Source: an uncultured Caulobacterales bacterium (GTDB taxonomy: Bacteria; Pseudomonadota; Alphaproteobacteria; Caulobacterales; Maricaulaceae). Taken from it: 64,000 nucleotides of DNA. Both the position numbers and the translations under genes were made by a program. This document shows positions 1-12,727 of the stretch, piece by piece. The notes under the pieces were generated by a model. That model was not told where the DNA came from, did not search any database, and was given only the letters and a program-made list of their open reading frames with translations. Location of the stretch: assembly GCA_937929915.1 (NCBI GenBank), contig CALFUN010000037.1, forward strand, positions 20,676 through 84,675. The letters run 5' to 3'. Each line of letters begins with the position of its first letter. Positions within the stretch are counted from its first letter, which is position 1.

Positions 1-2
1 CT

Positions 3-548
3 GAGAATTTTAAATCAGATTTTGATGCCTTTGAGTGGGATATAGACGAACTGGCTTTGGCGCGGTGGCAATGCGGGCAAACGGGTTATCCTTTTGTAGA
101 TGCAGGCATGAGAGAGCTGTGGCAAACAGGCTGGCAGCATAATCGTGTGCGCATGGTCTGTGCCAGTTTTTTGATTAAGCATTTGCTGCAAGATTGGCGT
201 ATGGGTGAGGCGTGGTATTGGGACACATTGCTCGAAGCTGACCCTGCGTCAAATGCCGCAAGCTGGCAATGGGTTGCAGGAAGCGGGGCGGATGCCTCAC
301 CTTATTTTCGTATTTTCAATCCTTTTAGTCAGGGTGAAAAATTCGATCCAGAGGGCGAATATGTGCGTAAATATGTGCCAGAACTCGCAAAACTGCCGAA
401 AAAATATATTCACCGCCCATGGGAGGCGCCCGCCAATATTTTGGAATATGCAGGCGTCACATTAGGCCAAACTTACCCTAAGCCCATTGTCGATCATAAA
501 ATGGCACGAGAGCGCGCGCTGGCGGCTTATAAGGCTACCAGAAATTAA
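3..548 (+). CDS. phrB: Deoxyribodipyrimidine photolyase (cryptochrome/photolyase family), 5'-partial
   Basis: Frame is open to the window start; FAD-binding motifs GQTGYPFVDAGMRELWQTGWQHNRVRM and WQWVAGSGADA-RIFNP. Confidence 0.93.
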   Translation, partial: ENFKSDFDAFEWDIDELALARWQCGQTGYPFVDAGMRELWQTGWQHNRVRMVCASFLIKHLLQDWRMGEAWYWDTLLEADPASNAASWQWVAGSGADASPYFRIFNPFSQGEKFDPEGEYVRKYVPELAKLPKKYIHRPWEAPANILEYAGVTLGQTYPKPIVDHKMARERALAAYKATRN

Positions 549-605
549 CAGTGTATAACTGTTTTGTGATTGGTAAATAGAAGGCGGCTGAAAGATTATA
601 TATCT

Positions 606-1289
606 ATGAAATATTTATCTGCAATTTTGACGATGGGTCTAGCCTCGCTATTGGTGACTGCGTGTTCACAAACCACGCCGCAGGCCGATATTGGCTATGA
701 AACAGGCCCGTCGGCGACTGTACAAAGTGTTGCGCAAAGGGCGTATGTTGATACGCGCTCTGATGGTTTATCCACGGCCATATTTGCGGGTGGTTGTTTT
801 TGGTGTACCGAATCTGATTTTGAGAAAATTCCCGGCGTTGTTGAAGCTATATCAGGCTATACGGGCGGGGGTGTTGATAATCCGAATTACAAACAAGTGA
901 GCTATACTGAAACAGGGCATTTTGAAGCGGTTAAAGTTATTTTCGATCCTGATAAGGTGAGTTACCGTGAACTGGTAGATCGTTTCTGGATGACGATTGA
1001 CCCAACCGATAATCGCGGCCAATTTTGTGATAAAGGCTCAAGTTACCGCTCGGCTGTATTTGCAACACCAGAGCAGCTAGCGCAGGCGCAAGCGTCTAAA
1101 TCTGAAGCTGTTAAAAATAAGCCCTTTTCGCAAGATTTTGTCACGCCCGTTTTGGCGGCTAAAACTTTTTATGACGCTGAAGATTATCATCAAGATTATT
1201 ATAAAACAAATAGCTTCCATTATAAAAGATACCGCAATGGATGCGGCCGAGATCGGCGCCTTGCGCAGCTTTGGGGAACAAAGCGGTAA
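606..1289 (+). CDS. msrA: Peptide-methionine (S)-S-oxide reductase with lipoprotein signal peptide
   Basis: FAGGCFWC active site, GHFEAV and AEDYHQDYY motifs; lipobox LVTAC; start placed at ATG 606. Confidence 0.93.
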   Translation: MKYLSAILTMGLASLLVTACSQTTPQADIGYETGPSATVQSVAQRAYVDTRSDGLSTAIFAGGCFWCTESDFEKIPGVVEAISGYTGGGVDNPNYKQVSYTETGHFEAVKVIFDPDKVSYRELVDRFWMTIDPTDNRGQFCDKGSSYRSAVFATPEQLAQAQASKSEAVKNKPFSQDFVTPVLAAKTFYDAEDYHQDYYKTNSFHYKRYRNGCGRDRRLAQLWGTKR

Positions 1290-1293
1290 ATCC

Positions 1294-2874
1294 TTATGGC
1301 CGAGCGGGCGGGTTATATCCGTAAGCTGCCCAAGTTTTCATTTTGCGCCGCTTGCCGCCGCCCAAATCAATCTCAATAGGTGCTAATGGCTCCAGGCGCT
1401 CAAAATCTTGTTGTAAATATGCAAGTATGTTTCCGGAATAATTAATTAATAATATTGGGTCTTGGCCTTGCTGAGTAAAAGGGTGAGTGAGCTCTGCATG
1501 ATGCTGGGGCGTTTGGGTTTTACGCCATATATATATGGGCGCCGTTTTCGGCAGGCCGTAATAATTGACATCATAAAACATAATTCTGTGGTCTAAAAGA
1601 ATAGAGTCAAAATTACGGCCTTCATGCCCTTGCGCAAATCGTGTTTCAATCGCTTGAACGGTTTGCGGCCAAGCGCGTAAGCGCTTAACAGAATTGGCAA
1701 TACCAAGACGGTTCACAAGGTGCGGCGAAAGAGACACAATCAATAGAAAACTACAAAACAGACTTTGCGCCAATAATCCACGATTTAACCAGTTTTTATA
1801 TTTCGGTATTTGCAAGGCTGCGGCCCCTAACAAAATCGCGGCACTTGGATAGGCGCTCACGGCCCAATTTGCATTGGCGCGCGATAGAAAAGCTTGCACA
1901 GAAATGATGATCAAAGGGGTGAGAGCAAAACAGGTTAAACATAATAATAAAGACGGTGTTGCCGTTTGTGTTGAGGCCGCTGCGCTAGATTGTATGGTTT
2001 GGGAATTGTGTGACATTATGCGCCATAATATTAGAAGTAATAGAATAAATGGCACAGGGCCAAAGACACCAAATTGATCTCTAAAAAACGCTAAAAATTC
2101 GAATGGATGAAAAAATGATGTCTTGCCATCAAGGCTTGTATTGGAAGCCGTATGGGTGATGGTGGCAAAATCATTTACGCTATTCCACCATATATTTGGC
2201 GCAAGGATAGCTGCGGCTAAAACCACTATGCTGATGCCTTTAAGGCCGAGTAAGGCTTTGCGCGTTGGACTATCAAAGATAATGGCTAGTATGAGCGGGG
2301 GGATGAAAAACATCATGGCATATTTTGACATCATGCCAAAGCCAAGGGCGAGGCCAAGAAGCGCAGCCAGTCGCCAAGTGGGGGTCAGCCGTAAAGAGAC
2401 CCACCCATATAGGCCCAAGGCCCAGAAAAATAGTAAGGGCACGTCCGTGCTGACAATCATTGAGGACACCCATATAGCAGGCATGAGAATATAAACCGCA
2501 CACGCCCAAAACCCCGCACGCGGGCTAAAGGCTTTTCGGCCTGCTAAAAAAATCAAATAGGCTGTAGCACTATGCAGGAGCGGCGAGCCTAATCTAACCG
2601 CCCATTCGGCATCACCGAAAAGGGCTGTTGTTGCGGCGATCATCCACGCGACCATAGGTGGTTTGGAGAAATACCCCCAATCCAAATCCTGCGCCCATGC
2701 CCAATATTGGGCTTCATCGCCATGTAAATTATAAGGCGAGAGCCATAATGTAACTAAGCGAATAGACAGCAGACCTAAGACAAGCCATAAGACGCGGTTA
2801 CGATATAAGATCGAATTTTGGACGCTGTGTGTCATGCTGTGTCTATGGCGCGAAGCGGCCATAAAATAAACCAA
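1294..2874 (-). CDS. Glycosyltransferase family 39 (ArnT/PMT-like, GT-C) membrane protein
   Basis: DEAQYWAWAQDLDWGYFSKPPM motif, many TM segments, SKY motif; exact start uncertain. Confidence 0.85.
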   Translation of the reverse strand: MVYFMAASRHRHSMTHSVQNSILYRNRVLWLVLGLLSIRLVTLWLSPYNLHGDEAQYWAWAQDLDWGYFSKPPMVAWMIAATTALFGDAEWAVRLGSPLLHSATAYLIFLAGRKAFSPRAGFWACAVYILMPAIWVSSMIVSTDVPLLFFWALGLYGWVSLRLTPTWRLAALLGLALGFGMMSKYAMMFFIPPLILAIIFDSPTRKALLGLKGISIVVLAAAILAPNIWWNSVNDFATITHTASNTSLDGKTSFFHPFEFLAFFRDQFGVFGPVPFILLLLILWRIMSHNSQTIQSSAAASTQTATPSLLLCLTCFALTPLIIISVQAFLSRANANWAVSAYPSAAILLGAAALQIPKYKNWLNRGLLAQSLFCSFLLIVSLSPHLVNRLGIANSVKRLRAWPQTVQAIETRFAQGHEGRNFDSILLDHRIMFYDVNYYGLPKTAPIYIWRKTQTPQHHAELTHPFTQQGQDPILLINYSGNILAYLQQDFERLEPLAPIEIDLGGGKRRKMKTWAAYGYNPPARP

Positions 2875-2923
2875 ATTCCCAAATCATAACGCTTTAGTTA
2901 GAAAATCACGCCAAGAAGGTTTT

Positions 2924-3739
2924 ATGGCACATGCGCTTATATTTGATTCTGGGGTTGGGGGATTATCCGTTGTCGAAGAAATTCGGCGAAGATGTCCGAA
3001 TCTGCGATTGTCCTATGTCGCGGATGATGCGTTTCGGCCTTATGGCGAAAAAGCGGAACTCGCCTTGCGAGCGCGTCTGCCGAGACTTTTATCTGAGCTA
3101 ACATATATGCTCGATCCTGATATTGTCGTGATGGCTTGTAATACCGCCTCGACGACAGCTTTGGCCGATATTCGTGCAGTTTTATCTATACCTGTTATCG
3201 GCGTTGTTCCTGCCATTAAACCTGCCGCGGCCCATTCACGCACAAAAACCATTGGTGTATTAGGCACGCCCGGGACAGTGAAACGGCAATATGTTGACCG
3301 CCTCATTCAAGACTTTGCCAGTGATTGCCACGTGATTTTGCAAGGCTCTGTCAACCTTGTCGACCAAGCAGAGGCGAAATTATCTGGAGAGCCTGTTAAT
3401 ATGGATGTGATTAAAGGCGAAATTAGCCCGATGTTTGCCAGCAAGCACGGTATGGACGTGGATGCCGTTGTTTTGGCCTGTACGCATTTTCCGCTTTTGC
3501 GTGATGAACTTAAGGCATGTGTTACACAGTCTGTAAAATGGATTGATAGCGGCGCAGCGATCGCAAAACGGGTTGAAACTCTATTGGCGCAAGTGCTGCC
3601 AAAGGGCGTCAGGCGGCTGCGTCCGCCGCGCGAAGATACGGTATTTTTAATTGGGCCAGACACACATGCCGCGCGTCAGCAGGCATTTATGCGATTTGGC
3701 TTTAAAACTGTGATTGGGCTTTTGCCAGATTCGCGCTAG
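2924..3739 (+). CDS. murI: Glutamate racemase
   Basis: DSGVGGLS, ACNTAS and LACTHFP catalytic motifs. Confidence 0.96.
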   Translation: MAHALIFDSGVGGLSVVEEIRRRCPNLRLSYVADDAFRPYGEKAELALRARLPRLLSELTYMLDPDIVVMACNTASTTALADIRAVLSIPVIGVVPAIKPAAAHSRTKTIGVLGTPGTVKRQYVDRLIQDFASDCHVILQGSVNLVDQAEAKLSGEPVNMDVIKGEISPMFASKHGMDVDAVVLACTHFPLLRDELKACVTQSVKWIDSGAAIAKRVETLLAQVLPKGVRRLRPPREDTVFLIGPDTHAARQQAFMRFGFKTVIGLLPDSR

Positions 3740-3751
3740 CAAAAGGCTGGG

Positions 3752-4357
3752 TTAATGCCCAAAAAAATGCTTATAAGCCATATAAAGTGCAATGAGCGCG
3801 CCAAAACTCACAATCGTGAAAACCGCGAAATGCTCTTTCATCCATTGCTCGGCTTGTTGACCCAAGAGCCGTACAATACCAGCAACTGCCAAATAGCGTA
3901 ATGTGCGCGAGAGCGTGCTGGCGGCAACAAATACGCCAAAACTAATAGGCACCGCCCCGCTCATAATTGTTATGACTTTATAAGGGAAAGGTGTAAACCC
4001 TGCGCCGAAAACCCATAAGCCACTATGTTTATTGACGCTATCTCGGAAAATCTCCATGCTGTCCGTTTTACCCAGCATATTGAGCAAAGGGCCTGCGATC
4101 GTCTCAAAGAACATTAAGCCAATAAAATATCCAAATATACCGCCGAGGACTGAAAATAAGCTCGACCAAAGTGCAAGACGCCACCATTTTTCAGGGCTAG
4201 CCTGCACCATAGGCATGAGCATGATGTCGACAGGAATAGGAAAAAAAGAGCTTTCCGCAAAGGACAGGCCGCATAGTAGCGGAAAAGCGCGCGGGTGCCG
4301 CGCAAGCGCTTTAGTATTTTCATACCAACGATCTAAAAATGCAAGACGGCCTTTCAT
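3752..4357 (-). CDS. YqaA/DedA (VTT domain) membrane protein
   Basis: SFAESSFFPIPVD and FTPFPYKVITI motifs typical of YqaA. Confidence 0.88.
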   Translation of the reverse strand: MKGRLAFLDRWYENTKALARHPRAFPLLCGLSFAESSFFPIPVDIMLMPMVQASPEKWWRLALWSSLFSVLGGIFGYFIGLMFFETIAGPLLNMLGKTDSMEIFRDSVNKHSGLWVFGAGFTPFPYKVITIMSGAVPISFGVFVAASTLSRTLRYLAVAGIVRLLGQQAEQWMKEHFAVFTIVSFGALIALYMAYKHFFGH

Positions 4358-4500
4358 GGCGTGGGCCTATCTGTAAATTATGCGAAAAACAAGATGATTA
4401 TGTGTGCAGATAATGGCCTTTAGCAGGACTTTCTAAGAGATTGGTGAAATCAACTATAGTCTTTTGAAACCTCCTGCTTTATAGAGCTGAAATCTTCGAT

Positions 4501-4584
4501 GCGGGTGTGGCGGAATTGGTAGACGCGCGGGATTCAAAATCCCGTTCCATTGGAGTGTCGGTTCGATTCCGACCACCCGTACCA
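4501..4584 (+). tRNA. tRNA-Leu (anticodon CAA), 84 nt, CCA encoded
   Basis: Acceptor stem GCGGGTG/CACCCGT, D-loop GGAATTGGTAGAC, anticodon arm CGGGA-TTCAAAA-TCCCG, variable arm, T-loop GTTCGATTC, 3' CCA. Confidence 0.97.
4527..4584 (+). repeat. att core (left): 3' 58 bp of tRNA-Leu
   Basis: Identical to 12520-12577; first mismatches at 4526/12519 and 4585/12578. Confidence 0.95.
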
Positions 4585-4747
4585 AAGAGTTGCAGTCTTG
4601 CGTTTGTTAATGTTATCAACAACTTAGCAGGTTAAGCGCTTTTTTCAATAAGATACTAAAATTTTCATCGAAAAACTTAAGTGCGGATTAAATGCAAAAG
4701 CTAACCTAAAACAATAATCGAGGGTAATTGTTTCAGTGGTTTGATAG

Positions 4748-5263
4748 CTAATTCGCAGTCAAAGTTACTGTTTCAGTCCCACCCGTGGCAACAGATACTT
4801 TTTTCATAAGCGTACCGCCTTCATTAAACACCTTTCCAATGTCCCAAGTCACTTTAGCTATGATGTAGTAATCTCCAGATGGTAGGTCTTTATACTCAAA
4901 CTCTCCATTTGCATTGCAAACCGTCTTCTTGACGGACTTATAGAAATCTGGTTCGTCTGGATTAAACTTCCACGCGCGGCGAGGGCCAAACAGATGACCG
5001 CTTGCTTCACTCCCATAGATGAAACGCATTCGTTCTGCCGCATAGGAACTATAGGGCAAAAGCTGAACTTCATAGCCAGCACAAGTTTTCACTGCACCAC
5101 CCTTAGTTCGCAAGAACGCTGAACCTTCTAGCGTTCCAGTTCCTGCACCATCAAACCAAGCAACATCCGTTTTAGAAAATTTAGACGATATTGGCACGTC
5201 AGTTGGTGGCACTGTTGCACATCCTGTCATCATCAATGCACCCACAATCATATATGCTTTCAT
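4748..5263 (-). CDS. Hypothetical lipoprotein (probable beta-sandwich, carboxypeptidase-regulatory-like)
   Basis: Signal peptide MKAYMIVGALMMTGC with lipobox Cys; GEFEYKDLPSGDYYI motif; start at ATG 5263 after GGAG. Confidence 0.7.
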   Translation of the reverse strand: MKAYMIVGALMMTGCATVPPTDVPISSKFSKTDVAWFDGAGTGTLEGSAFLRTKGGAVKTCAGYEVQLLPYSSYAAERMRFIYGSEASGHLFGPRRAWKFNPDEPDFYKSVKKTVCNANGEFEYKDLPSGDYYIIAKVTWDIGKVFNEGGTLMKKVSVATGGTETVTLTAN

Positions 5264-5356
5264 AAAACTCTCCTTGTTAAGCAATAATAAGAAGATTCTA
5301 CTCACAATATACTTATTAAGTATACACTAAAATGATATATATTCCATTTTTCTCGC

Positions 5357-5596
5357 ATGACCAAAACGCGTGTGACTCGAAAAGGAAATATCTGCGGGGC
5401 CAATGTCAAAGCCATCCGTAAGAAGATGGGCATGGCACAGGCTGACCTAGCCGCTGCCCTCTGCGTGGAACATGGGTATAATTTTGTTCAGAGCGATATT
5501 TCAGAAATTGAGCAAAACTATAGAGGCGTAAAAGACCATGAACTTAAAGCGCTGGCTGCTGTATTAGAGACTACAGCAGACGCTTTGCTTGCTTAA
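5357..5596 (+). CDS. XRE-family helix-turn-helix transcriptional regulator
   Basis: VKAIRKKMGMAQADLA...ISEIEQNYR...LKALAAVLET pattern; 79 aa. Confidence 0.85.
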   Translation: MTKTRVTRKGNICGANVKAIRKKMGMAQADLAAALCVEHGYNFVQSDISEIEQNYRGVKDHELKALAAVLETTADALLA

Positions 5597-5799
5597 CCCT
5601 TACGAAGGTACCCACCTATTTTTCTAAGAAAGGTATATAACGACCTAGGAGTGTCTGAAACTGGTTCTGTGACAGTTTCAGAAAAAAATACTATTTCAAA
5701 GTTTCAAAGAAATTTACCCCCGTTTCGCGTGGGAAAATCTAGTTGACTTCAATGCCTCACCTACTAAACCTTGAGCTGAGTGTTATATTGGGGACTATT

Positions 5800-6855
5800 A
5801 TGGCGGCGATGAAAAAAGAACGTGATATTCTTCTTCTCAAACTCAAGGCGCAAACAAGCCCCAAAAATATACCTGACAACTCCCCAATCCTGACGTTGAA
5901 CGAATTGATGGACATTTTGGAAACCGTCTACAAATCAGGTAAACACTACGCACTATTTAGCGCTAATGGATTTATGCCAACCCCCGGTAAAATGAACTTA
6001 AAAACAATAGGTGAGGTGGCGGGCGCACCTATAACGGATAATATAGTCTTTATATCTGACTTTTGGAGGAACGAAGGTAAAACGGAGTATCGGTTGCTGA
6101 TAAAACGTGGGAATCCAGACGCCGCCAATCCATCATTTACAAATATTGAAAAAAATACAACAAGAAGCGTCGCCCCCAGTGAGGGCGAAACCAACGGACA
6201 ATCGTCACATTTGGTTGTATCCTTAGATACCAGCCACAAAAGTATCGATGGATACAGAGCTGCTTTGGAGGTGATTGTCGGAATATCTAGAAGTTTAGTT
6301 ATGCCGTACATCAACGGTCTAATCTATGAGGCAACAAAACAAGACCCACGTTTCTCTTACCAAAAGCAGGTGAAAAATGAAAAGGTAGATATGACCTATA
6401 GGCCTTCTATCGGCCACTCTTCTAGTCCGTCAGGTTCCTTAGAGGCTGATCTAAAGAAGGGATATCTGTCTTCTGTCGAATTTATAGATAATAAGGTTAC
6501 TGGTGCGACTGGCCCCGATACTGACCCTGCCATTAAGCACGTTTCAAAACGGCTGCGTTTTCATTTAAAGCCCGTCGACAACCATGAAAGGGCTCAAGAA
6601 ATCATCCGAAAACTCAACAGGAAAGCTCGTGAACAAGAATTCGACTATATTCGCGTAAGTATGAAAGACAATGAGCAAGAGAAATATGTCTCCACCCGTT
6701 TCAAGACTGAGGAGGGGGATGCATTAGATAAACTCTATAGTAGAGCTGAGACTGTCAATGGTTTCTCACAAGACCTCAATTCATGCTATGATAAAGTTCA
6801 TGGAGAATTAGCCGAAGCTATGATGTTACTTATCAACTCCCCCCAGAAGTGGTAA
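5800..6855 (+). CDS. Hypothetical soluble protein, 351 aa (cargo gene A)
   Basis: Long ORF with GGGA upstream of ATG 5800; no recognised domain; stop lies 1 nt before the next ATG. Confidence 0.8.
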   Translation: MAAMKKERDILLLKLKAQTSPKNIPDNSPILTLNELMDILETVYKSGKHYALFSANGFMPTPGKMNLKTIGEVAGAPITDNIVFISDFWRNEGKTEYRLLIKRGNPDAANPSFTNIEKNTTRSVAPSEGETNGQSSHLVVSLDTSHKSIDGYRAALEVIVGISRSLVMPYINGLIYEATKQDPRFSYQKQVKNEKVDMTYRPSIGHSSSPSGSLEADLKKGYLSSVEFIDNKVTGATGPDTDPAIKHVSKRLRFHLKPVDNHERAQEIIRKLNRKAREQEFDYIRVSMKDNEQEKYVSTRFKTEEGDALDKLYSRAETVNGFSQDLNSCYDKVHGELAEAMMLLINSPQKW

Positions 6856-6856
6856 A

Positions 6857-7474
6857 ATGCTTTCTTGGATAAGATATCTGCTGCAACCGTTGGCGTATCT
6901 TAAGATACGCTATGGAGAAGGCACTAAGTCCAAACTGTTTTTGGATGTATTTGCACCATTAATTTTGACGGTAATTTTGTATCTTCTCAGTTTTTTAATT
7001 AACAAGGATCTGCCAGAAATAACCACAGAGATTATAGACGAAATTCTAAAATTTTTGACTTTTGCATTTCCCTTTTACGTAGCTTCATTGACTGCGGTAT
7101 CGACTTTCTCAAGCAAGTCTCTTGAAAAGGTTTTTGGCTCAAAGGAAAAAGATCAAGCGACTCTAAAAAGCTGGAGCAATGATAATCAAAGATGGGAAAA
7201 AGAACCCCTAACACGAAGGAAGTATACATCTTATATGTTTGGCTACCTATCAGTAGTGACTTTAATTTTAATATTCATCTTAGTTTTCGACAAATTTTTC
7301 AAAATTTCGAACTTTCAAACATTTTTACCTTCAGAAGTAATTCCTTGGATGATAAATACCGTGAACTTTTTGTTCTGGGCCGTTATTTTGAATATTGTTT
7401 TCGTTACCCTCATGGCGTTGAAGTTCTTAATTAGTAGTGTTGCCGAAGGTCACGAGAAGGACACTACCTCTTAG
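6857..7474 (+). CDS. Hypothetical 4-TM membrane protein, 205 aa (cargo gene B)
   Basis: Four hydrophobic segments with a polar loop ending LTRRKY; coupled to gene A (TAA-A-ATG). Confidence 0.8.
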   Translation: MLSWIRYLLQPLAYLKIRYGEGTKSKLFLDVFAPLILTVILYLLSFLINKDLPEITTEIIDEILKFLTFAFPFYVASLTAVSTFSSKSLEKVFGSKEKDQATLKSWSNDNQRWEKEPLTRRKYTSYMFGYLSVVTLILIFILVFDKFFKISNFQTFLPSEVIPWMINTVNFLFWAVILNIVFVTLMALKFLISSVAEGHEKDTTS

Positions 7475-7601
7475 TCTACTACCTACCTATTCGGGGCGAT
7501 GTTATTGATTGTATAATTTTTGTTTATGGTATTTTTTTTGTAAATTTTGGAGAGGAAAGAGCCGCAACAAGTGCGACTCCAAATTTAACTGAAGCTGTCA
7601 G

Positions 7602-7856
7602 TTAGTTCCTATACATATATGCTGGATACTGACTACGGTATTGCTGCCATACTAGTTTAGCTGCAGAAAACATAGCTTCCGACCTCAAGATAAAGTGTGA
7701 ATAAAGATAGTCCTCTAATTCTTCCCAGTTTCGAGCGTCGGGAAGATTAGGGTCAACTTTTGCACTGGCTGTGAAGTCACCTTGCCTTGAGTCGGTTATC
7801 CGTCGCTTTTGGATATACTCACGAAAGTCAATTAAGGGTTTATGTGATTTACTCAT
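7602..7856 (-). CDS. YozE/SAM-like small protein
   Basis: F-x-x-Y...D...GDF...DPNLP...EEL..YL...A..VW.QY pattern of the YozE_SAM_like family; ATGA overlap with upstream gene. Confidence 0.65.
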   Translation of the reverse strand: MSKSHKPLIDFREYIQKRRITDSRQGDFTASAKVDPNLPDARNWEELEDYLYSHFILRSEAMFSAAKLVWQQYRSQYPAYMYRN

Positions 7857-8323
7857 AGATAAACTCCTTTCTCAAAAGAGAAGTTAGGAATTTTGAACCT
7901 GAGCTTTTGCTTCCACTGGGGCTGTTTGTAAGTTCGAGTTTCAATGAGTTGCTCAATCAGCGACTGGCACTGTGACTGTGACCCGACATCTTGCGTTGGG
8001 CATTCGATTTTAAGCCATTCTTGGTAAACTTCCCAACCAGGTTTTTGGTCGAGCCAAGCCATTACATTAGCGATGGGATAATAGACCTTATTCTGCCGCC
8101 AAGTTCCTCTTGGTGTAGGTTTTGGCCCCTTGTCTCGAATATCCCAATTTGCAAGCGTTTGAAGGTGAACGCCAATGGCTCTTGAAAGCTGCAATCGTGA
8201 CACAACCTGCCATGGGAACGGTTTGGTAATTCCGTATAGCTCTTCAAGTCTGTCTAAAAAGTCCTTAGGTGCTAGGATCGCTTGAACGTGAGCCACAGTA
8301 TTTTTATGTTTTCTGGTAGTCAT
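7853..8323 (-). CDS. Xis/AlpA-like winged-HTH protein (candidate excisionase)
   Basis: SRLQLSRAIGVHLQTLANW...GPKP...KVYYPIANVMAWL resembles the MerR/Xis-type wHTH; GGAG RBS. Confidence 0.6.
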   Translation of the reverse strand: MTTRKHKNTVAHVQAILAPKDFLDRLEELYGITKPFPWQVVSRLQLSRAIGVHLQTLANWDIRDKGPKPTPRGTWRQNKVYYPIANVMAWLDQKPGWEVYQEWLKIECPTQDVGSQSQCQSLIEQLIETRTYKQPQWKQKLRFKIPNFSFEKGVYL

Positions 8324-8425
8324 ATTATATCTCCATATTTGATCCAGTGCTGTTTGTTGAGTTTAGTACAGTAGTAGCAAGCGTGCCCGCCCGCGTGGTA
8401 AGTCCACACGAACGGGTGCTTGAGT

Positions 8426-9559
8426 TTACCTGTTAAACTCTTCTCTAATCGCCTCAGACTCCGCCTGAGACCATTTTTCCTGATTTCTGATAATCCATAG
8501 CGAATGCCTAACGCCCTTCACCATACGTTGTCCTAGCGAGGACTTTCCCATTTGCTTGAGCGTATCGGTAACATTCCTAGTCTCACGAGAACGCGCACTT
8601 ACATTTGGACACATAGAAAGGTGCAAATCTATTTCAGCACTGCTCACAATGTCTTTGTGAAACGGCTGCAATCCCGACTCAATCAAATCTGTGAGCGCCG
8701 CACGAATAGGCGTGAAGCTCCGATGTATAAGATTGTCCTTAGCATCCGTCATGGGCGGCGCGGCGTTGGGATTAAAACCACTCAAGTCATGCTCGTGCAT
8801 GAGGTAGTGCATGAAGGCTGGACCTTCAGCCTCACTCGCGGCAAAGAGCGCATCGTAATATTCAGACGACTGCTTGGCAGCCTCTGAATGTACAACATGC
8901 CATCGGCGGTCATCTTCACTCAAATTGATACATTTTTTGAAGTTACTAAATGCAAGGAACGCTAGCGGCGTTTTTGCCTCAAACCTTGGAATACACTTCT
9001 CATTACACATGATGGTTGCCTCGCTAATAAGGGGCTTCATCATATTCTCAGTTTCCAAGTGTTTAGCGGCCATAAGCTCTTCAATGATGATGAGTTCCTT
9101 GTTCACGAACACAGAGTTGAACTCGCTTCGAAGGTGGCTTGTCTCGGCTATGCCTACATTCTGAGAGCCAAGCATGAACTTGAATAGGCTACCAAAGAAC
9201 GATTTCCCAATGCCCTGTCCGCCTGTCAGCAACAGAACGTGCTTTAATTTCAAGCTGGGGCGCTGGAACTTGCAAGCGAGATAGTTATACCAATGCCTAC
9301 GCTGTTCAGCGTCAACAATGACGAATTCGAAGTGCTTCGCGATGGTTGACCAATCGCCTTTTACAGGAACTACATCGCTACTCTTCCAAAGGTTCAGATA
9401 AACATCTTCGCCTTGGTGAATAAATTTTGCCCTACCAGCAAGATACGTTGTGCCTCTCACCTTACAAGAATACTGACATAGGTTGAAGTCTGTGGTAGGT
9501 TTTCTGAAAGCGTGACTCATGTGTTTCACGCCAAAGCTTTTGTCTGATAGTGCGGCCAT
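8426..9559 (-). CDS. SF3 (D5/NrS-1-like, DUF5906) helicase; probably the 3' half of a primase-helicase fusion
   Basis: Walker A GGQGIGKS, Walker B LIIIEE, NEK and FSNF motifs. Confidence 0.88.
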   Translation of the reverse strand: MAALSDKSFGVKHMSHAFRKPTTDFNLCQYSCKVRGTTYLAGRAKFIHQGEDVYLNLWKSSDVVPVKGDWSTIAKHFEFVIVDAEQRRHWYNYLACKFQRPSLKLKHVLLLTGGQGIGKSFFGSLFKFMLGSQNVGIAETSHLRSEFNSVFVNKELIIIEELMAAKHLETENMMKPLISEATIMCNEKCIPRFEAKTPLAFLAFSNFKKCINLSEDDRRWHVVHSEAAKQSSEYYDALFAASEAEGPAFMHYLMHEHDLSGFNPNAAPPMTDAKDNLIHRSFTPIRAALTDLIESGLQPFHKDIVSSAEIDLHLSMCPNVSARSRETRNVTDTLKQMGKSSLGQRMVKGVRHSLWIIRNQEKWSQAESEAIREEFNR

Positions 9560-9561
9560 GA

Positions 9562-10674
9562 TTACGCCCCCACTTCAAAATATTGATTTGTGGTTAAGCA
9601 ATAGACATACTGACTGATAACTTTTGCTAATTCAGACTGAATGAAGCCTAAACCAATAGGGGAAGTTAAACTTCCTGTTTGTCTGATAGGACAAGATTTA
9701 CAGCCTGAAAAAGCCAATGTGTCCGCAATATATTTGCATGTCGTTGGCCCCGAAGACTCAGACAAAGCATGAGTTATTTTGCGTTCGGTTTCGTCAAAGT
9801 CATAATCCGAGTATCCCTCTGATATTTGGTGACAAACCGCCCTCCCATCTTCGCAACGACTGGCAATCGTCAAGGTGTGATACCAAATCGGCTCCTCCAG
9901 CGTTTCGGAGTTATCAACGCTGTCTTTAACGAATGGACAGCCCTCATAGATAGGGTCAAATTTAGCGAGACCGTCCGAAGGCTTTTCGTTCTTTTTAGCT
10001 TTGAAATTTTGACGTGGTTTTGCCGCCTTTGTCTCTGGCTTTGGTATGAACTCGCACAATTCTGCAAAACTATATGTCTCATCAGACTGTCTGACAATTT
10101 CAACGAGCTTGGGAGTATCGCCTTTATTGTTGTAAGAGCCGGGCATCCGACCAACACGCGCAAGGTCTTGGCAGCTATCGTAAATGTAGCCGAGTTTCTT
10201 ACCTTCCGACTGAACTATGCTTGTAAAACCCTTTGTCAAAGCTTCGGCATTTTGCCGACTTTCATCATCCGTTATAGAGTAGCCGCCTTCTACAATATAA
10301 TATGCGTGAATGCCGCCCCCTGTCGCAACAATGTAGTTTGGTGGTGGGAGCATAGTGCCATCAAGAAAATCAATTAGTTCTTGAGTCGTTTTAGGGTTGT
10401 TTGGTTTCTTATCATTCCGACCATCCAAGTCTAAGAATACAGCAGATAGTTCGCTAACTTCTTTATTCGTCGCTCTTTGCGATGAAGATTTTGGTGTTTT
10501 GGTCGGGTTAATACTAAAGAAAACATTCTTGCCCGTTTGGGCTGTTGCTTCTTCGTACTGGCTTTGACGCTGATTGCGCTTGTACCAAGTCGTTTCTTTA
10601 TCTGGTAACGTCCAAGTATTCGTATAACCAGTAGTCTTTCCTGTATTCAATTTGTTCAAAAATTGAAGGCTCAT
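9562..10674 (-). CDS. RepB-like AEP primase with Cys-containing C-terminal domain
   Basis: FLDLD, TGGGIHAY and RMPGSYN motifs; AGGAGG RBS upstream. Confidence 0.85.
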   Translation of the reverse strand: MSLQFLNKLNTGKTTGYTNTWTLPDKETTWYKRNQRQSQYEEATAQTGKNVFFSINPTKTPKSSSQRATNKEVSELSAVFLDLDGRNDKKPNNPKTTQELIDFLDGTMLPPPNYIVATGGGIHAYYIVEGGYSITDDESRQNAEALTKGFTSIVQSEGKKLGYIYDSCQDLARVGRMPGSYNNKGDTPKLVEIVRQSDETYSFAELCEFIPKPETKAAKPRQNFKAKKNEKPSDGLAKFDPIYEGCPFVKDSVDNSETLEEPIWYHTLTIASRCEDGRAVCHQISEGYSDYDFDETERKITHALSESSGPTTCKYIADTLAFSGCKSCPIRQTGSLTSPIGLGFIQSELAKVISQYVYCLTTNQYFEVGA

Positions 10675-11233
10675 ATTGAGTCCTCCTGCTATTGCCTAGT
10701 TATGCTCTGGCTAGAGCGCATTCATCCTTCAGGCAGTTGGTTAACCTTCCACCCAGATCACCAGTCATGGAAAGCGATGCTAGCTTTCGATTCGGTGATT
10801 AATTTCCTCAAAGCCTTGTGAAAGACTGTCAGAATTTCTTTGATTTTGTGAGTTTCTGTGAGCGTGTGTTTTTTACTTTTTCTTATGTATGGAATAAGGC
10901 CATAAGGCTTAATACCAGTAACGAGAGTCTAACCGCATACTATTTCAAATCAAGAACTTTCTGCGTTGATAAAAATTTGTGCGTATGTCACGTCATCAAG
11001 TATTAGAAACAACTTCATGCCTGATTAGTTTTGAAACAAGTTTTGGGTAGCTTTCAAGCACGTCCTCTAAGAACATTTCGACAAGAGCTATACAACTCGC
11101 AACCTCCAATGCTTTTGCTTGAGAAAACTGAAAGCCCAAGACCTCAGAAAGGTGCCCCTGTATGTTTTGAGGGCTTTCGAGTAATCCACTCTGTCATTAT
11201 AGCATCCATCTTTTCGAGGTATTAAAAGTAACC

Positions 11234-12400
11234 CTATTCTGAATTTAAGCAAGCAACAGCATCTGCTTTATGTCCTGCTGATAAATGAGCATATCGCAAT
11301 GTCATCTCATATGAGCTGTGCCCAAGAAGCTCTCGAACGGTATTCAAGTCTATCCCTGCCATAGCTAGCCTTGATGCAAAGTGATGGCGCATATCGTGCC
11401 AGCGAAAATTTGAAATATTTGCTTCTTTGACTAAGCTTGCCCAAGCACTTTTAACGTCCTTAAATGGTTTGTTGTCATTCTTATGAAAAACATACTTTTG
11501 TGACTCAATGCCAGCGCCAAAGAGATTTTTGAAAGTTTCAAGCGCTTCGGTATTTAGAGGAATGTGTCTAAACTTACGTGATTTTGCATTCTCGGCGGTA
11601 ATAGAAACTTGTTTCAATTCAAAATCCACATGCTCCCACTTTAATGAGAACAGTTCGCCTCGTCTCATGCCAGTGTTCAATGATATAAGAACCATTGGCA
11701 TCAAATGATCTTTGAAAGGATAGTAGGACAGGTTTTTAGAGCTTATTACGCTCTCTCTTTCCTTTAAACTAAGCCTTAATCGCACTTCTTCGTCTGAAGT
11801 TAAGTACCGAACCCTCAAAGATTTAGCAGTCTTAATTTTCTTCATCTTTGCGATGGGGTTTGGGGAATGTATACCCCACTCGTCGGCTTTGGATAAAGCA
11901 GCTCTAAGATATGCAAAGCATTTATTGGCGGTATGAGGTGAATTCCCGTTAGCTATCTTCCTCAAACGCCACTTATCAACTGAAAGAGGTGTGATTTCCG
12001 TGAAACGAAATTTGGAAAAATGCCCGCATTCCGCAAGTAGTCGATTTCTTGTGTCTTTCGGATTCTTATGATTAACATCTACCCATGGAAAATAATGAAG
12101 CTTTAGGAATTCCTCGAATTTTTCAATTCGCGCGGCCTCTTGCTTTGGCTTTCGTGGGTCTTTGCCCGAATGGAAGTCAGAAAAGACCTTTAGAGCTTTT
12201 GTGTGAGCGTCTTTTACAGATAGCGATGGAAATACTCCTAGCCTAACCCTCGCTCCTCGTTTGTACTGGCAATAATAGGTTTTCTTTCCAGTTGGTTGAA
12301 CTCGAACTACCAATCCGACTAATTTTGTGTCGCGTAGCTCGTATGGCGTTTCTCTAGGCTTTGCTTTTTCGATTGTGTTGTTTGTTAGCCTGACTTGCAT
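11234..12400 (-). CDS. int: P4-type tyrosine integrase with N-terminal arm-binding domain
   Basis: Catalytic residues all present: GMRRGE, AKSRK, HDMRH, LGH, RY; N-terminal LVVRVQPTGKKTY arm-binding motif. Confidence 0.95.
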   Translation of the reverse strand: MQVRLTNNTIEKAKPRETPYELRDTKLVGLVVRVQPTGKKTYYCQYKRGARVRLGVFPSLSVKDAHTKALKVFSDFHSGKDPRKPKQEAARIEKFEEFLKLHYFPWVDVNHKNPKDTRNRLLAECGHFSKFRFTEITPLSVDKWRLRKIANGNSPHTANKCFAYLRAALSKADEWGIHSPNPIAKMKKIKTAKSLRVRYLTSDEEVRLRLSLKERESVISSKNLSYYPFKDHLMPMVLISLNTGMRRGELFSLKWEHVDFELKQVSITAENAKSRKFRHIPLNTEALETFKNLFGAGIESQKYVFHKNDNKPFKDVKSAWASLVKEANISNFRWHDMRHHFASRLAMAGIDLNTVRELLGHSSYEMTLRYAHLSAGHKADAVACLNSE

Positions 12401-12519
12401 TGTCGCATCCTTAAGTGCAACGTAAGTGCAAAACTTCTAGGAACAGGTAGTCAAAATGGTCAAACGAAACACGTTTCGTCGCCAAAACAGCCTGAAAACC
12501 GTAAGTTTATTAGGACGAA

Positions 12520-12577
12520 GCGGGATTCAAAATCCCGTTCCATTGGAGTGTCGGTTCGATTCCGACCACCCGTACCA
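12520..12577 (+). repeat. att core (right): displaced 3' fragment of tRNA-Leu
   Basis: 58-bp identity with 4527-4584; lacks the acceptor 5' strand and D arm, so it is not a functional tRNA. Confidence 0.95.
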
Positions 12578-12727
12578 TTAAATAATTTATATGAACATAA
12601 ATAGATAAGACGCCTTGTCTGTGATAGGGTGTGATGGTCAGATTATTTTGAAAAACAGGTAATGCCGCTGGCAATAAAGATGGGCTGCGGTCTTGACCGT
12701 TTCGGCGGAACTGACCACATAGTCTTT

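What the first reader, a model, noticed from the sequence alone, without database searches (positions are those of the whole stretch)
4501..12577. Minimal ~8 kb satellite-like element in tRNA-Leu with no packaging or capsid genes
Seen: a perfect 58-bp att duplication starting in the anticodon stem, an integrase with all catalytic residues, primase, SF3 helicase, an Xis-like gene and cargo. No terminase, capsid, relaxase or T4SS gene is visible. The integrase sits by the displaced tRNA fragment, and the Xis-like gene follows rather than precedes the primase. Established: P4, PICI and PICMI satellites share int/alpA/primase cores and carry defence hotspots. Inference: a helper-dependent satellite of a marine-type alphaproteobacterium that may not fit named families.
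Basis: partly seen in the sequence, partly recalled or inferred. Interest (0 to 1): 0.75.

Follow-up and report, generated by a model that had tools for sequence, protein, structure and literature searches.

The report
Small mobile island in tRNA-Leu gene
This is an intact 8-kb mobile island inserted in a tRNA-Leu gene of a marine Litorimonas/Hellea-like bacterium; it can cut itself out and copy itself, carries candidate anti-phage genes but no vehicle of its own, and belongs to the known class of minimal marine satellite-like elements, so whether it depends on a helper phage is still untested.

Summary
tRNA-Leu(CAA) lies at 4501-4584, and a perfect 58-bp repeat (4527-4584 / 12520-12577) brackets a 7,993-bp unit. 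The unit encodes a P4-type tyrosine integrase, an AEP primase-polymerase, a DUF5906 SF3 helicase, a 156-aa winged-helix protein, an XRE regulator, the two-gene defence candidate PDC-M53 and a lipoprotein. No capsid, terminase, relaxase or T4SS gene was detected.

It belongs to a rare family (about 11 primase clusters among 5.8 billion) found in macroalgal and marine metagenomes. Members share the same core. They differ in integrase and tRNA target (Leu, Ser, Phe) and in cargo at two hotspots (PDC-M53, methyltransferase plus DndB-like, GmrSD-like). Core genes are under purifying selection. Two non-coding stretches are more conserved than synonymous sites.

The island is polymorphic in nature. 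In one run it has the depth of its flanks (140 vs 143-150). In another it has about half (52-58 vs 94-105), with the change exactly at the repeats. Related species lack it.

Helper-phage dependence is not shown: there are no hits in viral contigs and no excess copy number. Its architecture matches PICMI, VEIME and tycheposon elements, but it fails strict PICMI, P4 and PICI definitions. I file it as a new member of a known kind, of moderate interest.

The parts
4501..4584 (+). Intact tRNA-Leu(CAA). Its 3' 58 nt (4527-4584) form the left att repeat (attL core).
   Evidence: ARAGORN; Rfam tRNA at 59.7 bits; repeat.
4748..5263 (-). tRNA-proximal accessory gene for a lipoprotein (signal peptide plus lipobox ...LMMTGC). 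It has homologues in temperate Pseudomonas phages. Its function is unknown; surface or superinfection exclusion is a guess.
   Evidence: phrog_14789 at 4e-40; tblastn to 18 phage records at about 33% identity; 73% identical copy in L083. The ORF runs to 5305 from a GTG start; the likely ATG start is at 5263.
5357..5596 (+). XRE-family HTH regulator. It is conserved in six of the seven related loci screened with it (no match in L086 or L089), is always divergent from the tRNA-proximal gene, and lies upstream of the hotspot-2 cargo. It is a candidate element repressor or cargo controller.
   Evidence: HTH_3 at 9.6e-07; PADLOC control-protein/capH-like hits; 61-89% identical in L081, L083, L085, L088.
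5800..6855 (+). PDC-M53A, the soluble component of a two-gene candidate anti-phage system (hotspot-2 cargo).
   Evidence: PADLOC PDLC04696 at 5.3e-29; phrog_16499 at 1e-13. Only 8 clusters in the protein search. The AlphaFold model has pLDDT 67 and no fold match.
6857..7474 (+). PDC-M53B, a membrane protein with four hydrophobic helices and the presumed effector partner of M53A.
   Evidence: PADLOC PDLC04699 at 3.9e-20; phrog_8257 at 1e-19; Kyte-Doolittle segments.
7602..7856 (-). Small 84-aa protein, last gene of the replication operon. This position varies between family members (YozE_SAM-like in L081, about 124 aa in others).
   Evidence: phrog_8600 at 7.7e-10; 41% identity to the L081 gene and 67% to the L089 gene; Pfam YozE_SAM_like on the L081 homologue.
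7853..8323 (-). p156, a winged-helix DNA-binding protein with family-specific N- and C-terminal extensions. It is the most conserved protein of the family. It is a candidate excision directionality factor or activator; a packaging or origin-binding role is not excluded.
   Evidence: phrog_66 (excisionase/regulator) at 2.8e-4. Best PDB sequence hits are the lambda gpNu1 DNA-binding domain at E 0.006-0.02. Foldseek top hits are TerS N-domain, gpNu1 and RdfS excisionase at E about 0.1. BFVD hits are generic MerR/Xis/AlpA/PrtN proteins. It has 16 clusters, all within this family, and is 74% identical in L086 where the primase is 56%.
8324..8425 (-). Conserved intergenic region with a 13-bp G+C-rich hairpin (CCCGTTCGTGTGG-ACTTA-CCACGCGGGCGGG on the sense strand) followed by the invariant CTACTACT. 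It is a candidate RNA structure, origin or recognition site.
   Evidence: 78-90% identical even in L086 and L089, where synonymous sites are about 40% identical. The hairpin is kept in 7 of 7 members through G-U/G-C changes.
8426..9559 (-). SF3 (D5/VapE-like) replicative helicase.
   Evidence: DUF5906 at 4.9e-15; phrog_1156 at 3e-28; Walker A GGQGIGKS 113-120, Walker B IIIEE 157-161. Homologous to the C-terminal halves of phage primase-helicase fusions.
9562..10674 (-). Archaeo-eukaryotic-type primase-polymerase with a Cys-rich C-terminal domain. Here it is a separate gene, whereas most relatives are fused to the helicase.
   Evidence: phrog_25314 at 1e-22 and phrog_2478 at 4e-22; motifs D82xD84, H123, R176-PGS-N. 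There are 7,550 representatives at E<1e-3, mostly the N-termini of 750-1,050-aa proteins, but only 11 close clusters.
10675..10982 (-). Conserved promoter plus a leader of about 250 nt upstream of the replication operon. The candidate -35 is at 10953-10948 and the -10 at 10931-10926. It is a candidate regulatory leader and/or origin.
   Evidence: 86-90% identical to L081, L083, L085 and L088, where third codon positions are 53-77% identical. The TTCTTG...TA.A.TC motif is invariant in all 7 members. No Rfam match.
10983..11233 (-). Hotspot 1 (integrase-primase junction), empty here. In L083 it holds three genes and in L085 a YaaC-like gene. It contains a strong sigma-70-like match (11225-11196).
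   Evidence: Homology to relatives stops at 10982; gene maps; promoter scan scoring 10 of 12.
11234..12400 (-). P4-type tyrosine integrase (arm-binding, SAM-like and catalytic domains), transcribed inward from the right att repeat.
   Evidence: Pfam and PHROG hits; catalytic residues.
12520..12577 (+). Displaced 3' tRNA-Leu fragment, the right att repeat (attR core), 84 nt upstream of the MBL-fold hydrolase gene.
   Evidence: The depth step in run X2 falls at this repeat.

Best explanation
The block 4585-12577 is a functional, recently mobile integrative and self-replicating island with a 7,993-bp unit. It belongs to a small family restricted to Litorimonas/Hellea-like Maricaulales.

Shown:
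- It is bounded by a perfect duplication of the 3' 58 nt of tRNA-Leu(CAA).
- It encodes a complete tyrosine integrase and a two-gene replicase (AEP primase-polymerase plus SF3 helicase).
- Its core is conserved under purifying selection in relatives that use other integrases and other tRNA genes.
- It is present in only part of a natural population.

Inferred mechanism:
1. An unknown signal relieves repression, possibly exerted by the XRE regulator.
2. The conserved promoter upstream of the primase then drives the primase-helicase-p156-p84 operon.
3. Integrase, helped by the winged-helix protein p156 acting as directionality factor or activator, recombines the two 58-bp repeats. This releases an 8-kb circle and restores the tRNA.
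4. The replicase amplifies the circle from an origin in one of the two conserved non-coding stretches.
5. Because the element has no capsid, terminase or conjugation gene, it leaves the cell in someone else's vehicle. By analogy with PICMI and VEIME, the most likely route is as concatemers in the capsids of a helper phage.
6. The cargo next to the tRNA (PDC-M53A/B, lipoprotein) pays the host by protecting it from other phages.

My confidence that it is a mobile integrative replicative element is about 0.85. My confidence that transfer is helper-phage dependent, which is the stated figure, is about 0.45.
For: Boundaries and integrase. Replicase.

Family with the same gene order but different integrases and targets: tRNA-Leu (window, L081/L087), tRNA-Ser with a 26-nt repeat (L083), tRNA-Phe with a 7,574-bp period (L085), and other integrases in L086, L088 and L125.

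Purifying selection: identity at codon positions 1/2/3 is, for example, 85/91/53%. Non-coding regions are more conserved than synonymous sites.

Population polymorphism: in X2 the island is at 52-58x against flanks at 94-105x on both sides, with contigs breaking at the repeats. In X1 the figures are 140x against 143-150x. The X2 right-flank contig starts 30 nt inside the tRNA fragment and runs unbranched at full depth, as expected for an empty site.

The element is absent from the nine related species that keep ArnT-MurI-VTT-tRNA-Leu(CAA).

Defence-type cargo sits at the same hotspot in three members: PDC-M53, type II methyltransferase plus DndB/DpdB-like, and GmrSD_N.

The primase family is frequent in phages (303 of 50,697 records) and rare in plasmids (4 of 72,556).

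Precedent: PICMI (int, AlpA and a DUF5906 primase, no capsid genes, concatemer packaging, defence hotspot next to the target gene; PMC10803314) and VEIMEs in marine Alphaproteobacteria (PMC9618062).
Against: There is no direct evidence of excision. Only assembled contigs were available, and the 58-bp repeat is longer than the assembler's word, so attP and attB junctions cannot be seen. The depth difference could reflect two strains rather than ongoing excision.

The element shows no copy-number excess over the chromosome in either run.

IMG/VR viral contigs hold no relative of the primase and neither conserved non-coding motif. All runs that hold the core are bulk marine or algal metagenomes, not viromes.

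No terminase-like, pac or cos feature was identified. The resemblance of p156 to lambda gpNu1 is weak and confined to the shared winged helix. No helper phage is known for this host group.

Cargo-carrying tycheposons with the same architecture were not found in phage particles (10.1101/2020.12.28.424599).
Confidence: 0.45

Rival explanations
1. It is a tycheposon-like cargo shuttle. It uses the same integrase-plus-replicase chassis, but it is not a phage parasite. It excises and replicates under stress and spreads as a monomeric circle in extracellular vesicles, by transformation or by occasional generalized transduction. The defence genes are simply beneficial cargo.
For: The architecture is the one described for cargo-carrying tycheposons: a tRNA site with a partial tRNA at the far end, an integration module of about 1 kb, a replication module of 2-4 kb, and cargo. 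Those elements were enriched in vesicles and not found in phage fractions (10.1101/2020.12.28.424599). Marine Alphaproteobacteria release integrase-plus-primase elements in both vesicles and virus-like particles (PMC11876622). No packaging gene or viral-contig relative was found here.
Against: The cargo is anti-phage rather than metabolic, as in P4, PICI and PICMI hotspots. The replicase family is phage-biased. IMG/VR would not be expected to list satellites that lack viral hallmark genes, so that negative result is weak. Membership of the tycheposon integrase clade was not tested.
Confidence: 0.3
2. It is an integrative mobilizable element. After excision it is transferred by the conjugation machinery of a co-resident ICE or plasmid through an unrecognized oriT, and the primase-helicase serves establishment in the recipient.
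For: The element is small, integrates at a tRNA and has no vehicle of its own. The conserved hairpin-containing non-coding region could in principle be an oriT.
Against: No relaxase, coupling protein or Mob-like gene appears in any of the roughly ten family members examined. The primase family is almost absent from plasmids. The window holds no conjugative element close by (not annotated in depth).
Confidence: 0.08
3. It is an immobile remnant: the leftover integrase and replication end of a degraded prophage or larger island, now fixed and kept only for its defence cargo.
For: One relative (L081/L087) has a decayed right repeat, which shows that copies can become stranded. No excision junction could be observed.
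Against: The 58-bp repeats are perfect and all ORFs are intact. Third-codon positions diverge far more than first and second positions. The same compact core recurs with at least five different integrases and three tRNA targets, and never with structural genes. The element is absent from part of the same population and from related species.
Confidence: 0.05

Closest known systems
PICMI (phage-inducible chromosomal minimalist islands, Vibrionaceae; PMC10803314)
   Same: It is 6-8 kb with no capsid or packaging genes. It has a tyrosine integrase and a DUF5906-type replication protein plus a small winged-helix regulator. The integrase sits at the distal direct repeat, and an anti-phage cargo hotspot sits between the replication genes and the target gene. 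The non-coding regions are large and conserved.
   Different: The host is an alphaproteobacterium, not a Vibrio. The target is a tRNA gene, not the 3' end of fis. The repeat is 58 bp rather than 17 bp. The winged-helix protein is 156 aa, follows the replicase rather than preceding it, and does not reach Pfam AlpA or HTH_17. The replicase is split into an AEP primase-polymerase and a helicase. There is an extra XRE regulator and no int-overlapping gene. Helper dependence has not been shown.
VEIMEs (virion-encapsidated integrative mobile elements of marine bacteria; PMC9618062)
   Same: They are small marine integrative elements, many in Alphaproteobacteria. They carry tyrosine integrases, primase/helicases, AlpA or excisionase-like genes and restriction or abortive-infection-type cargo, and no capsid genes.
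   Different: VEIMEs are defined operationally by being read as concatemers from purified virions, and no such evidence exists here. The hosts sampled were open-ocean plankton (Pelagibacter and others), not algae-associated Maricaulales. No sequence comparison with VEIME genes could be made.
Tycheposons (Prochlorococcus and other marine microbes; 10.1101/2020.12.28.424599)
   Same: They integrate in tRNA genes and leave a partial tRNA at the far end. They have a modular integration module, a replication module and cargo. Tandem or neighbouring elements occur at the same tRNA, as in L081. Integrases and cargo are exchanged between otherwise similar elements.
   Different: The host phylum is different. 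The cargo here is defence-type rather than nutrient acquisition. Membership of the tycheposon integrase clade was not tested.
P4-like satellites and Gram-negative PICIs
   Same: All share a P4-type integrase with an Arm-DNA-bind_3 domain at a tRNA gene, a primase-helicase replication module, an AlpA/Vis-type winged-helix regulator, and defence hotspots.
   Different: This element has no Psu, Sid, Delta or Epsilon (P4). It has no capsid-morphogenesis, Rpp or TerS genes (PICI, cfPICI). It is about 8 kb rather than 10-15 kb.

Membership tests
PICMI (SatelliteFinder model of PMC10803314) | Integrase (PF00589, PF00239 or PF07508) | tested here: met
   PF00589 at 2.5e-33.
PICMI (SatelliteFinder model of PMC10803314) | Primase with DUF3987 (PF13148) or DUF5906 (PF19263) | tested here: met
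   PF19263 at 4.9e-15 on the helicase gene 8426-9559.
PICMI (SatelliteFinder model of PMC10803314) | AlpA (PF05930 or PF12728) | tested here: not met
   Neither family is listed for p156 or four homologues even at E up to 10. Only phrog_66 at 2.8e-4 and weak fold similarity to excisionase/gpNu1 winged helices were found.
PICMI (SatelliteFinder model of PMC10803314) | Integration next to fis; Vibrionaceae host | tested here: not met
   The element is integrated in tRNA-Leu(CAA). Its flanks are a VTT-domain gene with MurI on one side and an MBL hydrolase on the other. The host is Litorimonas/Hellea-like.
PICMI (biological definition) | Induced by, and packaged as a concatemer by, a helper phage | not testable with these tools
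   Only assembled contigs of bulk metagenomes are available. No RNA runs were found.
P4-like satellite | Psu, Sid, Delta and Epsilon together with an alpha primase-helicase | tested here: not met
   No Pfam or PHROG hit to any of these among all ORFs of 60 aa or more. The replicase is AEP plus SF3, split into two genes.
PICI / cfPICI | Packaging or capsid genes (terS, rpp, ppi, cpm; or capsid, portal and head-tail adaptors) | tested here: not met
   No such hits were found. The gpNu1-like signal of p156 is limited to the winged helix at E 0.006-0.1, and there is no full-length TerS match in BFVD.
VEIME | Recovered as concatemeric DNA from purified virions | not testable with these tools
   No virome or long-read data hold the element.
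VEIME | Small integrative element with an integrase and a replication gene, and no major capsid gene | tested here: met
Tycheposon | Tyrosine recombinase at a tRNA gene with a partial tRNA at the distal end, a replication module and cargo | tested here: met
Tycheposon | Integrase and hallmark genes belong to the tycheposon-specific clades | not tested
Integrative mobilizable element | Relaxase and/or a recognizable oriT | tested here: not met
   There is no relaxase or Mob hit. An oriT cannot be excluded by sequence alone.

The most novel reading that the evidence does not exclude
p156 is not only an excision factor. It is a minimal, Nu1-like packaging-specificity protein. Its winged helix binds the invariant hairpin/CTACTACT region just upstream of its own gene, and its very conserved C-terminal 60 residues recruit a helper phage's large terminase. 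The island would then carry its own pac system in about 600 bp and redirect packaging without any recognizable terminase gene. That would be a new solution among minimal satellites, and the first satellite-helper system in Maricaulales.
Probability: 0.1. Interest if true: 0.65.

Novelty: new member of a known kind. Interest (0 to 1): 0.4.

Why it matters
If it is confirmed as active, this would be a compact, well-delimited example of the minimal integrase-plus-replicase islands that appear to move defence genes among marine bacteria. It lives in algae-associated Maricaulales, a host group where no satellite or helper phage has been described.

The family is a clean natural experiment in modularity. 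One 3.1-kb replication core is combined with at least five integrases, three tRNA targets and two cargo slots that hold different defence candidates. It therefore offers a shortlist of untested anti-phage genes (PDC-M53A/B, the lipoprotein, and the slot-1 genes of L083 and L085).

It also offers two strongly constrained non-coding elements whose role (origin, regulatory leader or packaging site) could be tested directly. It does not overturn anything, because the class is already known.

Tried and rejected
1. Viral origin or helper clue. The primase profile and two conserved non-coding motifs were scanned against IMG/VR and gave no hits.

2. GTDB representative genomes. No relative of the primase was found. 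One JGI metagenome scan gave only 3 loci.

3. Terminase reading of p156. The best PDB sequence hits are lambda gpNu1, but the profile search weakens them to E 0.03-0.06. Foldseek ranks an excisionase equally. BFVD returns only generic MerR/Xis/AlpA proteins. I rejected this as specific evidence for TerS.

4. Mechanism of PDC-M53A. The AlphaFold model is mediocre (pLDDT 67) and has no fold or PDB sequence match. The only literature mention is incidental.

5. Known RNA families in the island. None was found besides the tRNA. Covariation in the 300-nt leader is uninformative because the sequences are too similar.

6. Direct detection of attP and attB. This was impossible because all runs are kept as k=31-based contigs and the repeat is 58 bp. 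The 7,993-nt contig in X1 equals exactly one period, but it is what an assembly-graph cycle would give, so I did not count it as a circular molecule.

7. Expression. No RNA runs were found.

8. Empty site in relatives through the right flank. The MBL-YdbH pair is never next to tRNA-Leu in 80 relatives. The left flank had to be used instead.

9. Degraded-prophage reading. I rejected it on the grounds of purifying selection and the recurrent compact core.

Full report
OBSERVATION. ARAGORN finds a single tRNA in the window, tRNA-Leu(CAA), at 4501-4584 on the + strand. A 58-bp stretch at 4527-4584 recurs without a mismatch at 12520-12577. These are the only two matches at up to 3 mismatches, and none is expected by chance. 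The block begins at tRNA position 27, the 5' side of the anticodon stem, and runs through the encoded CCA. This is the classic footprint of integration by a tyrosine recombinase whose crossover lies in the anticodon loop. The unit, meaning the island plus one repeat, is 7,993 bp. G+C falls from about 47-49% in the flanks to 38-43% over much of the island.

GENE CONTENT. Reading from the tRNA, the island holds the following.
- A lipoprotein (4748-5263, -; phrog_14789 at 4e-40).
- An XRE HTH regulator (5357-5596, +; HTH_3 at 1e-6).
- PDC-M53A (5800-6855, +; PADLOC 5e-29).
- PDC-M53B (6857-7474, +; PADLOC 4e-20; four hydrophobic helices).
- An operon on the minus strand that ends with p84 (7602-7856; phrog_8600) and p156 (7853-8323). 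Upstream of these come a DUF5906 SF3 helicase (8426-9559; Walker A and B present) and a 370-aa primase (9562-10674).
- A 559-bp non-coding gap.
- A P4-type integrase (11234-12400, -; Arm-DNA-bind_3 plus Phage_integrase; R, K, HxxR, H and Y all present).
These assignments rest. The primase has no Pfam hit. It matches PHROG primase/polymerase families (1e-22) and shows the AEP motifs DxD, sxH and RxPGSxN. It is homologous over its full length to the N-terminal halves of thousands of 750-1,050-aa primase-helicase fusions (7,550 representatives at E<1e-3; phage examples). The replicase is therefore an ordinary phage-type prim-pol/SF3 enzyme split into two genes. No ORF of 60 aa or more hits a capsid, portal, terminase, tail, relaxase or T4SS family.

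THE 'XIS-LIKE' GENE. p156 gives only a weak PHROG hit to excisionase/regulator (2.8e-4) and no Pfam AlpA or HTH_17 hit, even at E up to 10. Its best sequence matches in the PDB are the DNA-binding domain of the lambda small terminase gpNu1 (E 0.006-0.02, about 30% identity over 55-76 residues). A family profile makes these weaker, not stronger. The AlphaFold model (pLDDT 76) has Foldseek top hits to a TerS N-domain, to gpNu1 and to the RdfS excisionase of a Mesorhizobium ICE, all at E about 0.1. Against predicted viral structures it finds generic MerR, excisionase, AlpA and PrtN winged helices and no full-length terminase. I conclude that p156 is a MerR/Xis/Nu1-superfamily winged helix with family-specific N- and C-terminal extensions. 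Its role as directionality factor or activator is an inference. It is the best-conserved protein of the family, at 74% identity in L086 where primase and helicase are 56-58%.

HOST AND SITE. The MBL-hydrolase flank places the window in the Litorimonas/Hellea/Algimonas group of Maricaulales. The left-flank synteny ArnT-MurI-VTT protein-tRNA-Leu(CAA) is kept in nine related species. None of them has this element or a second copy of the tRNA 3' end within about 9 kb. The right flank (MBL-YdbH) is never next to tRNA-Leu in 80 relatives. In the closest MAG the two flanks lie on different contigs, and both continue for more than 9 kb into unrelated DNA. The island therefore sits exactly at a synteny breakpoint, which I report but cannot explain.

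POPULATION EVIDENCE FOR MOBILITY. Two runs of one marine metagenome study hold the island at 97-100% of its words. In X1 the island contig has the depth of the chromosome (140 vs 143-150). In X2 the island contigs are at 52 and 58, whereas 4.5 kb of left flank and 7.5 kb of right flank are at 94-105, and the contigs break at the repeats. The X2 right-flank contig starts 30 nt inside the tRNA fragment and continues unbranched at full depth. The genomes without the island therefore still have a tRNA-Leu 3' end directly upstream of position 12578, which is what an empty attB looks like. About 45% of that population thus lacks the island in a near-identical background (3 differences in 3.8 kb of flank). 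It does not prove ongoing excision. Junction reads cannot be recovered from k=31 contigs across a 58-bp repeat.

A FAMILY.
- Rarity. The primase has only 11 clusters among 5.8 billion and p156 has 16. All come from marine or algal metagenomes.
- Shared gene order. Contigs carrying them show the order int | pri-hel-p156-small gene | HTH(opposite strand) | variable tRNA-proximal gene | tRNA.
- Integrases and targets differ. L081/L087 use tRNA-Leu(CAA) with a 76%-identical integrase and a decayed right repeat. L083 uses tRNA-Ser(GGA) with a 26-nt repeat in a 10.35-kb element. L085 uses tRNA-Phe(GAA) with a 7,574-bp period. L086, L088 and L125 have other integrases.
- Layout. In each member whose right att repeat could be located, the integrase lies next to the displaced tRNA fragment, so that feature is a family trait. 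It is also the PICMI polarity: target gene, hotspot, prim, alpA, int, repeat.
- Core. Nucleotide homology to the window spans 7850-10982.
- Two cargo slots. Slot 1 lies between the integrase and the leader. It is empty here, holds three genes in L083 and holds a YaaC-like gene in L085. Slot 2 lies downstream of the XRE gene. It holds PDC-M53 here, a type II methyltransferase plus a DndB/DpdB-like protein in L083, and a GmrSD_N protein in L127.

SELECTION AND NON-CODING CONSERVATION. Between the window and relatives, identity at codon positions 1/2/3 is 85/91/53% for the primase against L083, and the pattern is similar for the helicase and p156. This is clear purifying selection and argues against a decaying remnant. 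Two non-coding stretches are more conserved than synonymous sites.
- The first is the 308 nt upstream of the primase (10675-10982). It is 86-90% identical in five members. It contains a -35/-10-like pair (10953-10948 and 10931-10926, minus strand) that is invariant in all seven, followed by a leader of about 250 nt.
- The second is the 102-nt helicase-p156 spacer (8324-8425). It is 78-90% identical even in the most divergent members. It contains a 13-bp G+C-rich hairpin kept in 7 of 7 through G-U/G-C changes on the sense strand, and an invariant CTACTACT.
Neither matches an Rfam family or any viral contig. They are the obvious candidates for the origin, a regulatory leader or a recognition site.

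HOW IT MOST LIKELY WORKS. The following are shown: an intact integration module, an intact replicase, a conserved promoter and leader, precise boundaries, and presence/absence polymorphism. The following are inferred:
1. The replication operon is derepressed.
2. Integrase plus p156 excise the element across the 58-bp repeats.
3. The prim-pol and helicase replicate the circle.
4. The element exits in a borrowed vehicle.
5. The host gains protection from PDC-M53 and perhaps from the lipoprotein.
The vehicle is the open question. For a helper phage speak three points: the anti-phage cargo at a target-proximal hotspot, as in P4, PICI and PICMI; the phage bias of the replicase family (303 phage records against 4 plasmid records); and the precedents of PICMI and of VEIMEs in marine Alphaproteobacteria. 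Against it speak four points: no viral-contig relatives, no copy-number excess, no packaging determinant, and the finding that cargo-carrying tycheposons of the same build are enriched in vesicles rather than capsids. I put helper dependence at about 0.45, a vesicle or other non-capsid route at about 0.3, conjugative mobilization at about 0.08, and an immobile remnant at about 0.05.

COMPARISON AND NOVELTY. It works like a PICMI, VEIME or tycheposon. It is not a PICMI by that family's own model, because the AlpA Pfam hit and the fis site are not met. It is not a P4-like satellite, PICI, cfPICI or PLE, because their defining genes are absent. VEIME membership is operational and cannot be tested here. 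Membership of the tycheposon clade was not tested. At sequence level the family is new and rare. At the level of kind it is a new member of a known class. Interest is moderate. It is a tidy, probably active element with testable non-coding elements and untested defence cargo in an unexplored host group, but a specialist would not be surprised by it.

Noticed in passing
L081:8338-9875 (same in L087): Between the VTT/MurI flank and the full tRNA-Leu(CAA) lies a 1,451-bp unit. It holds only a 409-aa integrase-like gene and is bracketed by a 40-nt direct repeat of the 5' half of the tRNA (positions 1-40, 98% identical). This looks like a mini-element integrated on the 5' side of the same tRNA, in tandem with the family element. 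L103 shows a 15-nt anticodon-stem match 1.4 kb upstream of its tRNA-Leu, which may be similar.
   Followed up: partly
window 4393-4500 and 12578-12727: The island sits exactly at a synteny breakpoint. In the closest relative MAG, the left flank (L091, collinear to window 1-4393) and the right flank (L001, collinear from 12728) lie on different contigs that each run on for more than 9 kb into unrelated DNA. In Litorimonas sp. RW-G-Af-16 the two flanks are about 285 kb apart. In L001 a tRNA-Val(GAC) lies 88 nt upstream of the MBL gene, almost the same spacing as the tRNA-Leu fragment here (84 nt).
   Followed up: partly
window 8324-8425: A 13-bp G+C-rich hairpin plus an invariant CTACTACT lies between the helicase and p156. 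It is conserved in all seven family members, and all stem changes are G-U/G-C switches on the sense strand. This points to an RNA or single-strand structure rather than a duplex-DNA site.
   Followed up: partly
window 8305-8345 (alignment A5 columns 105-108 / 138-141): A 4-bp helix (CUGG/CCAG) would enclose the ribosome-binding site and start codon of p156. Its outer pair switches C-G to G-C in 3 of 7 sequences, although one side lies in codon 4 (Arg/Thr). This may be translational control, but the evidence is thin.
   Followed up: no
window 10675-10982: The promoter and leader upstream of the primase are 86-90% identical between members whose synonymous sites are only 53-57% identical. In L086 and L089 the leader is replaced by a shorter, unrelated one, while the -35/-10-like motif is kept.
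   Followed up: partly
window 4574-12566 in run X1: The Logan contig covering the island in X1 is exactly 7,993 nt, one repeat period, with no overlap. An assembly-graph cycle through the 58-bp repeat would give this, so it is not evidence for a circular molecule.
   Followed up: no
window 8386-8415 in run X2: In X2 the island is split into two contigs with slightly different depths (52.3 on the cargo side, 58.3 on the replication and integrase side). Runs X3 and X4 of the same study hold a roughly 93%-identical replication core with a different integrase and no PDC-M53 (contig L126). Several family members therefore coexist in one habitat.
   Followed up: partly
L127:3343-4506 and L083:6739-9398: Hotspot 2 of other family members carries a GmrSD_N (type IV restriction-like) gene, or a type II methyltransferase plus a 573-aa DndB/DpdB-like protein downstream of the XRE gene. 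The slot-1 genes of L083 (197 aa, a 128-aa DUF4325 protein, 162 aa) and of L085 (YaaC-like) have no PADLOC match and are candidates for new defence functions.
   Followed up: partly
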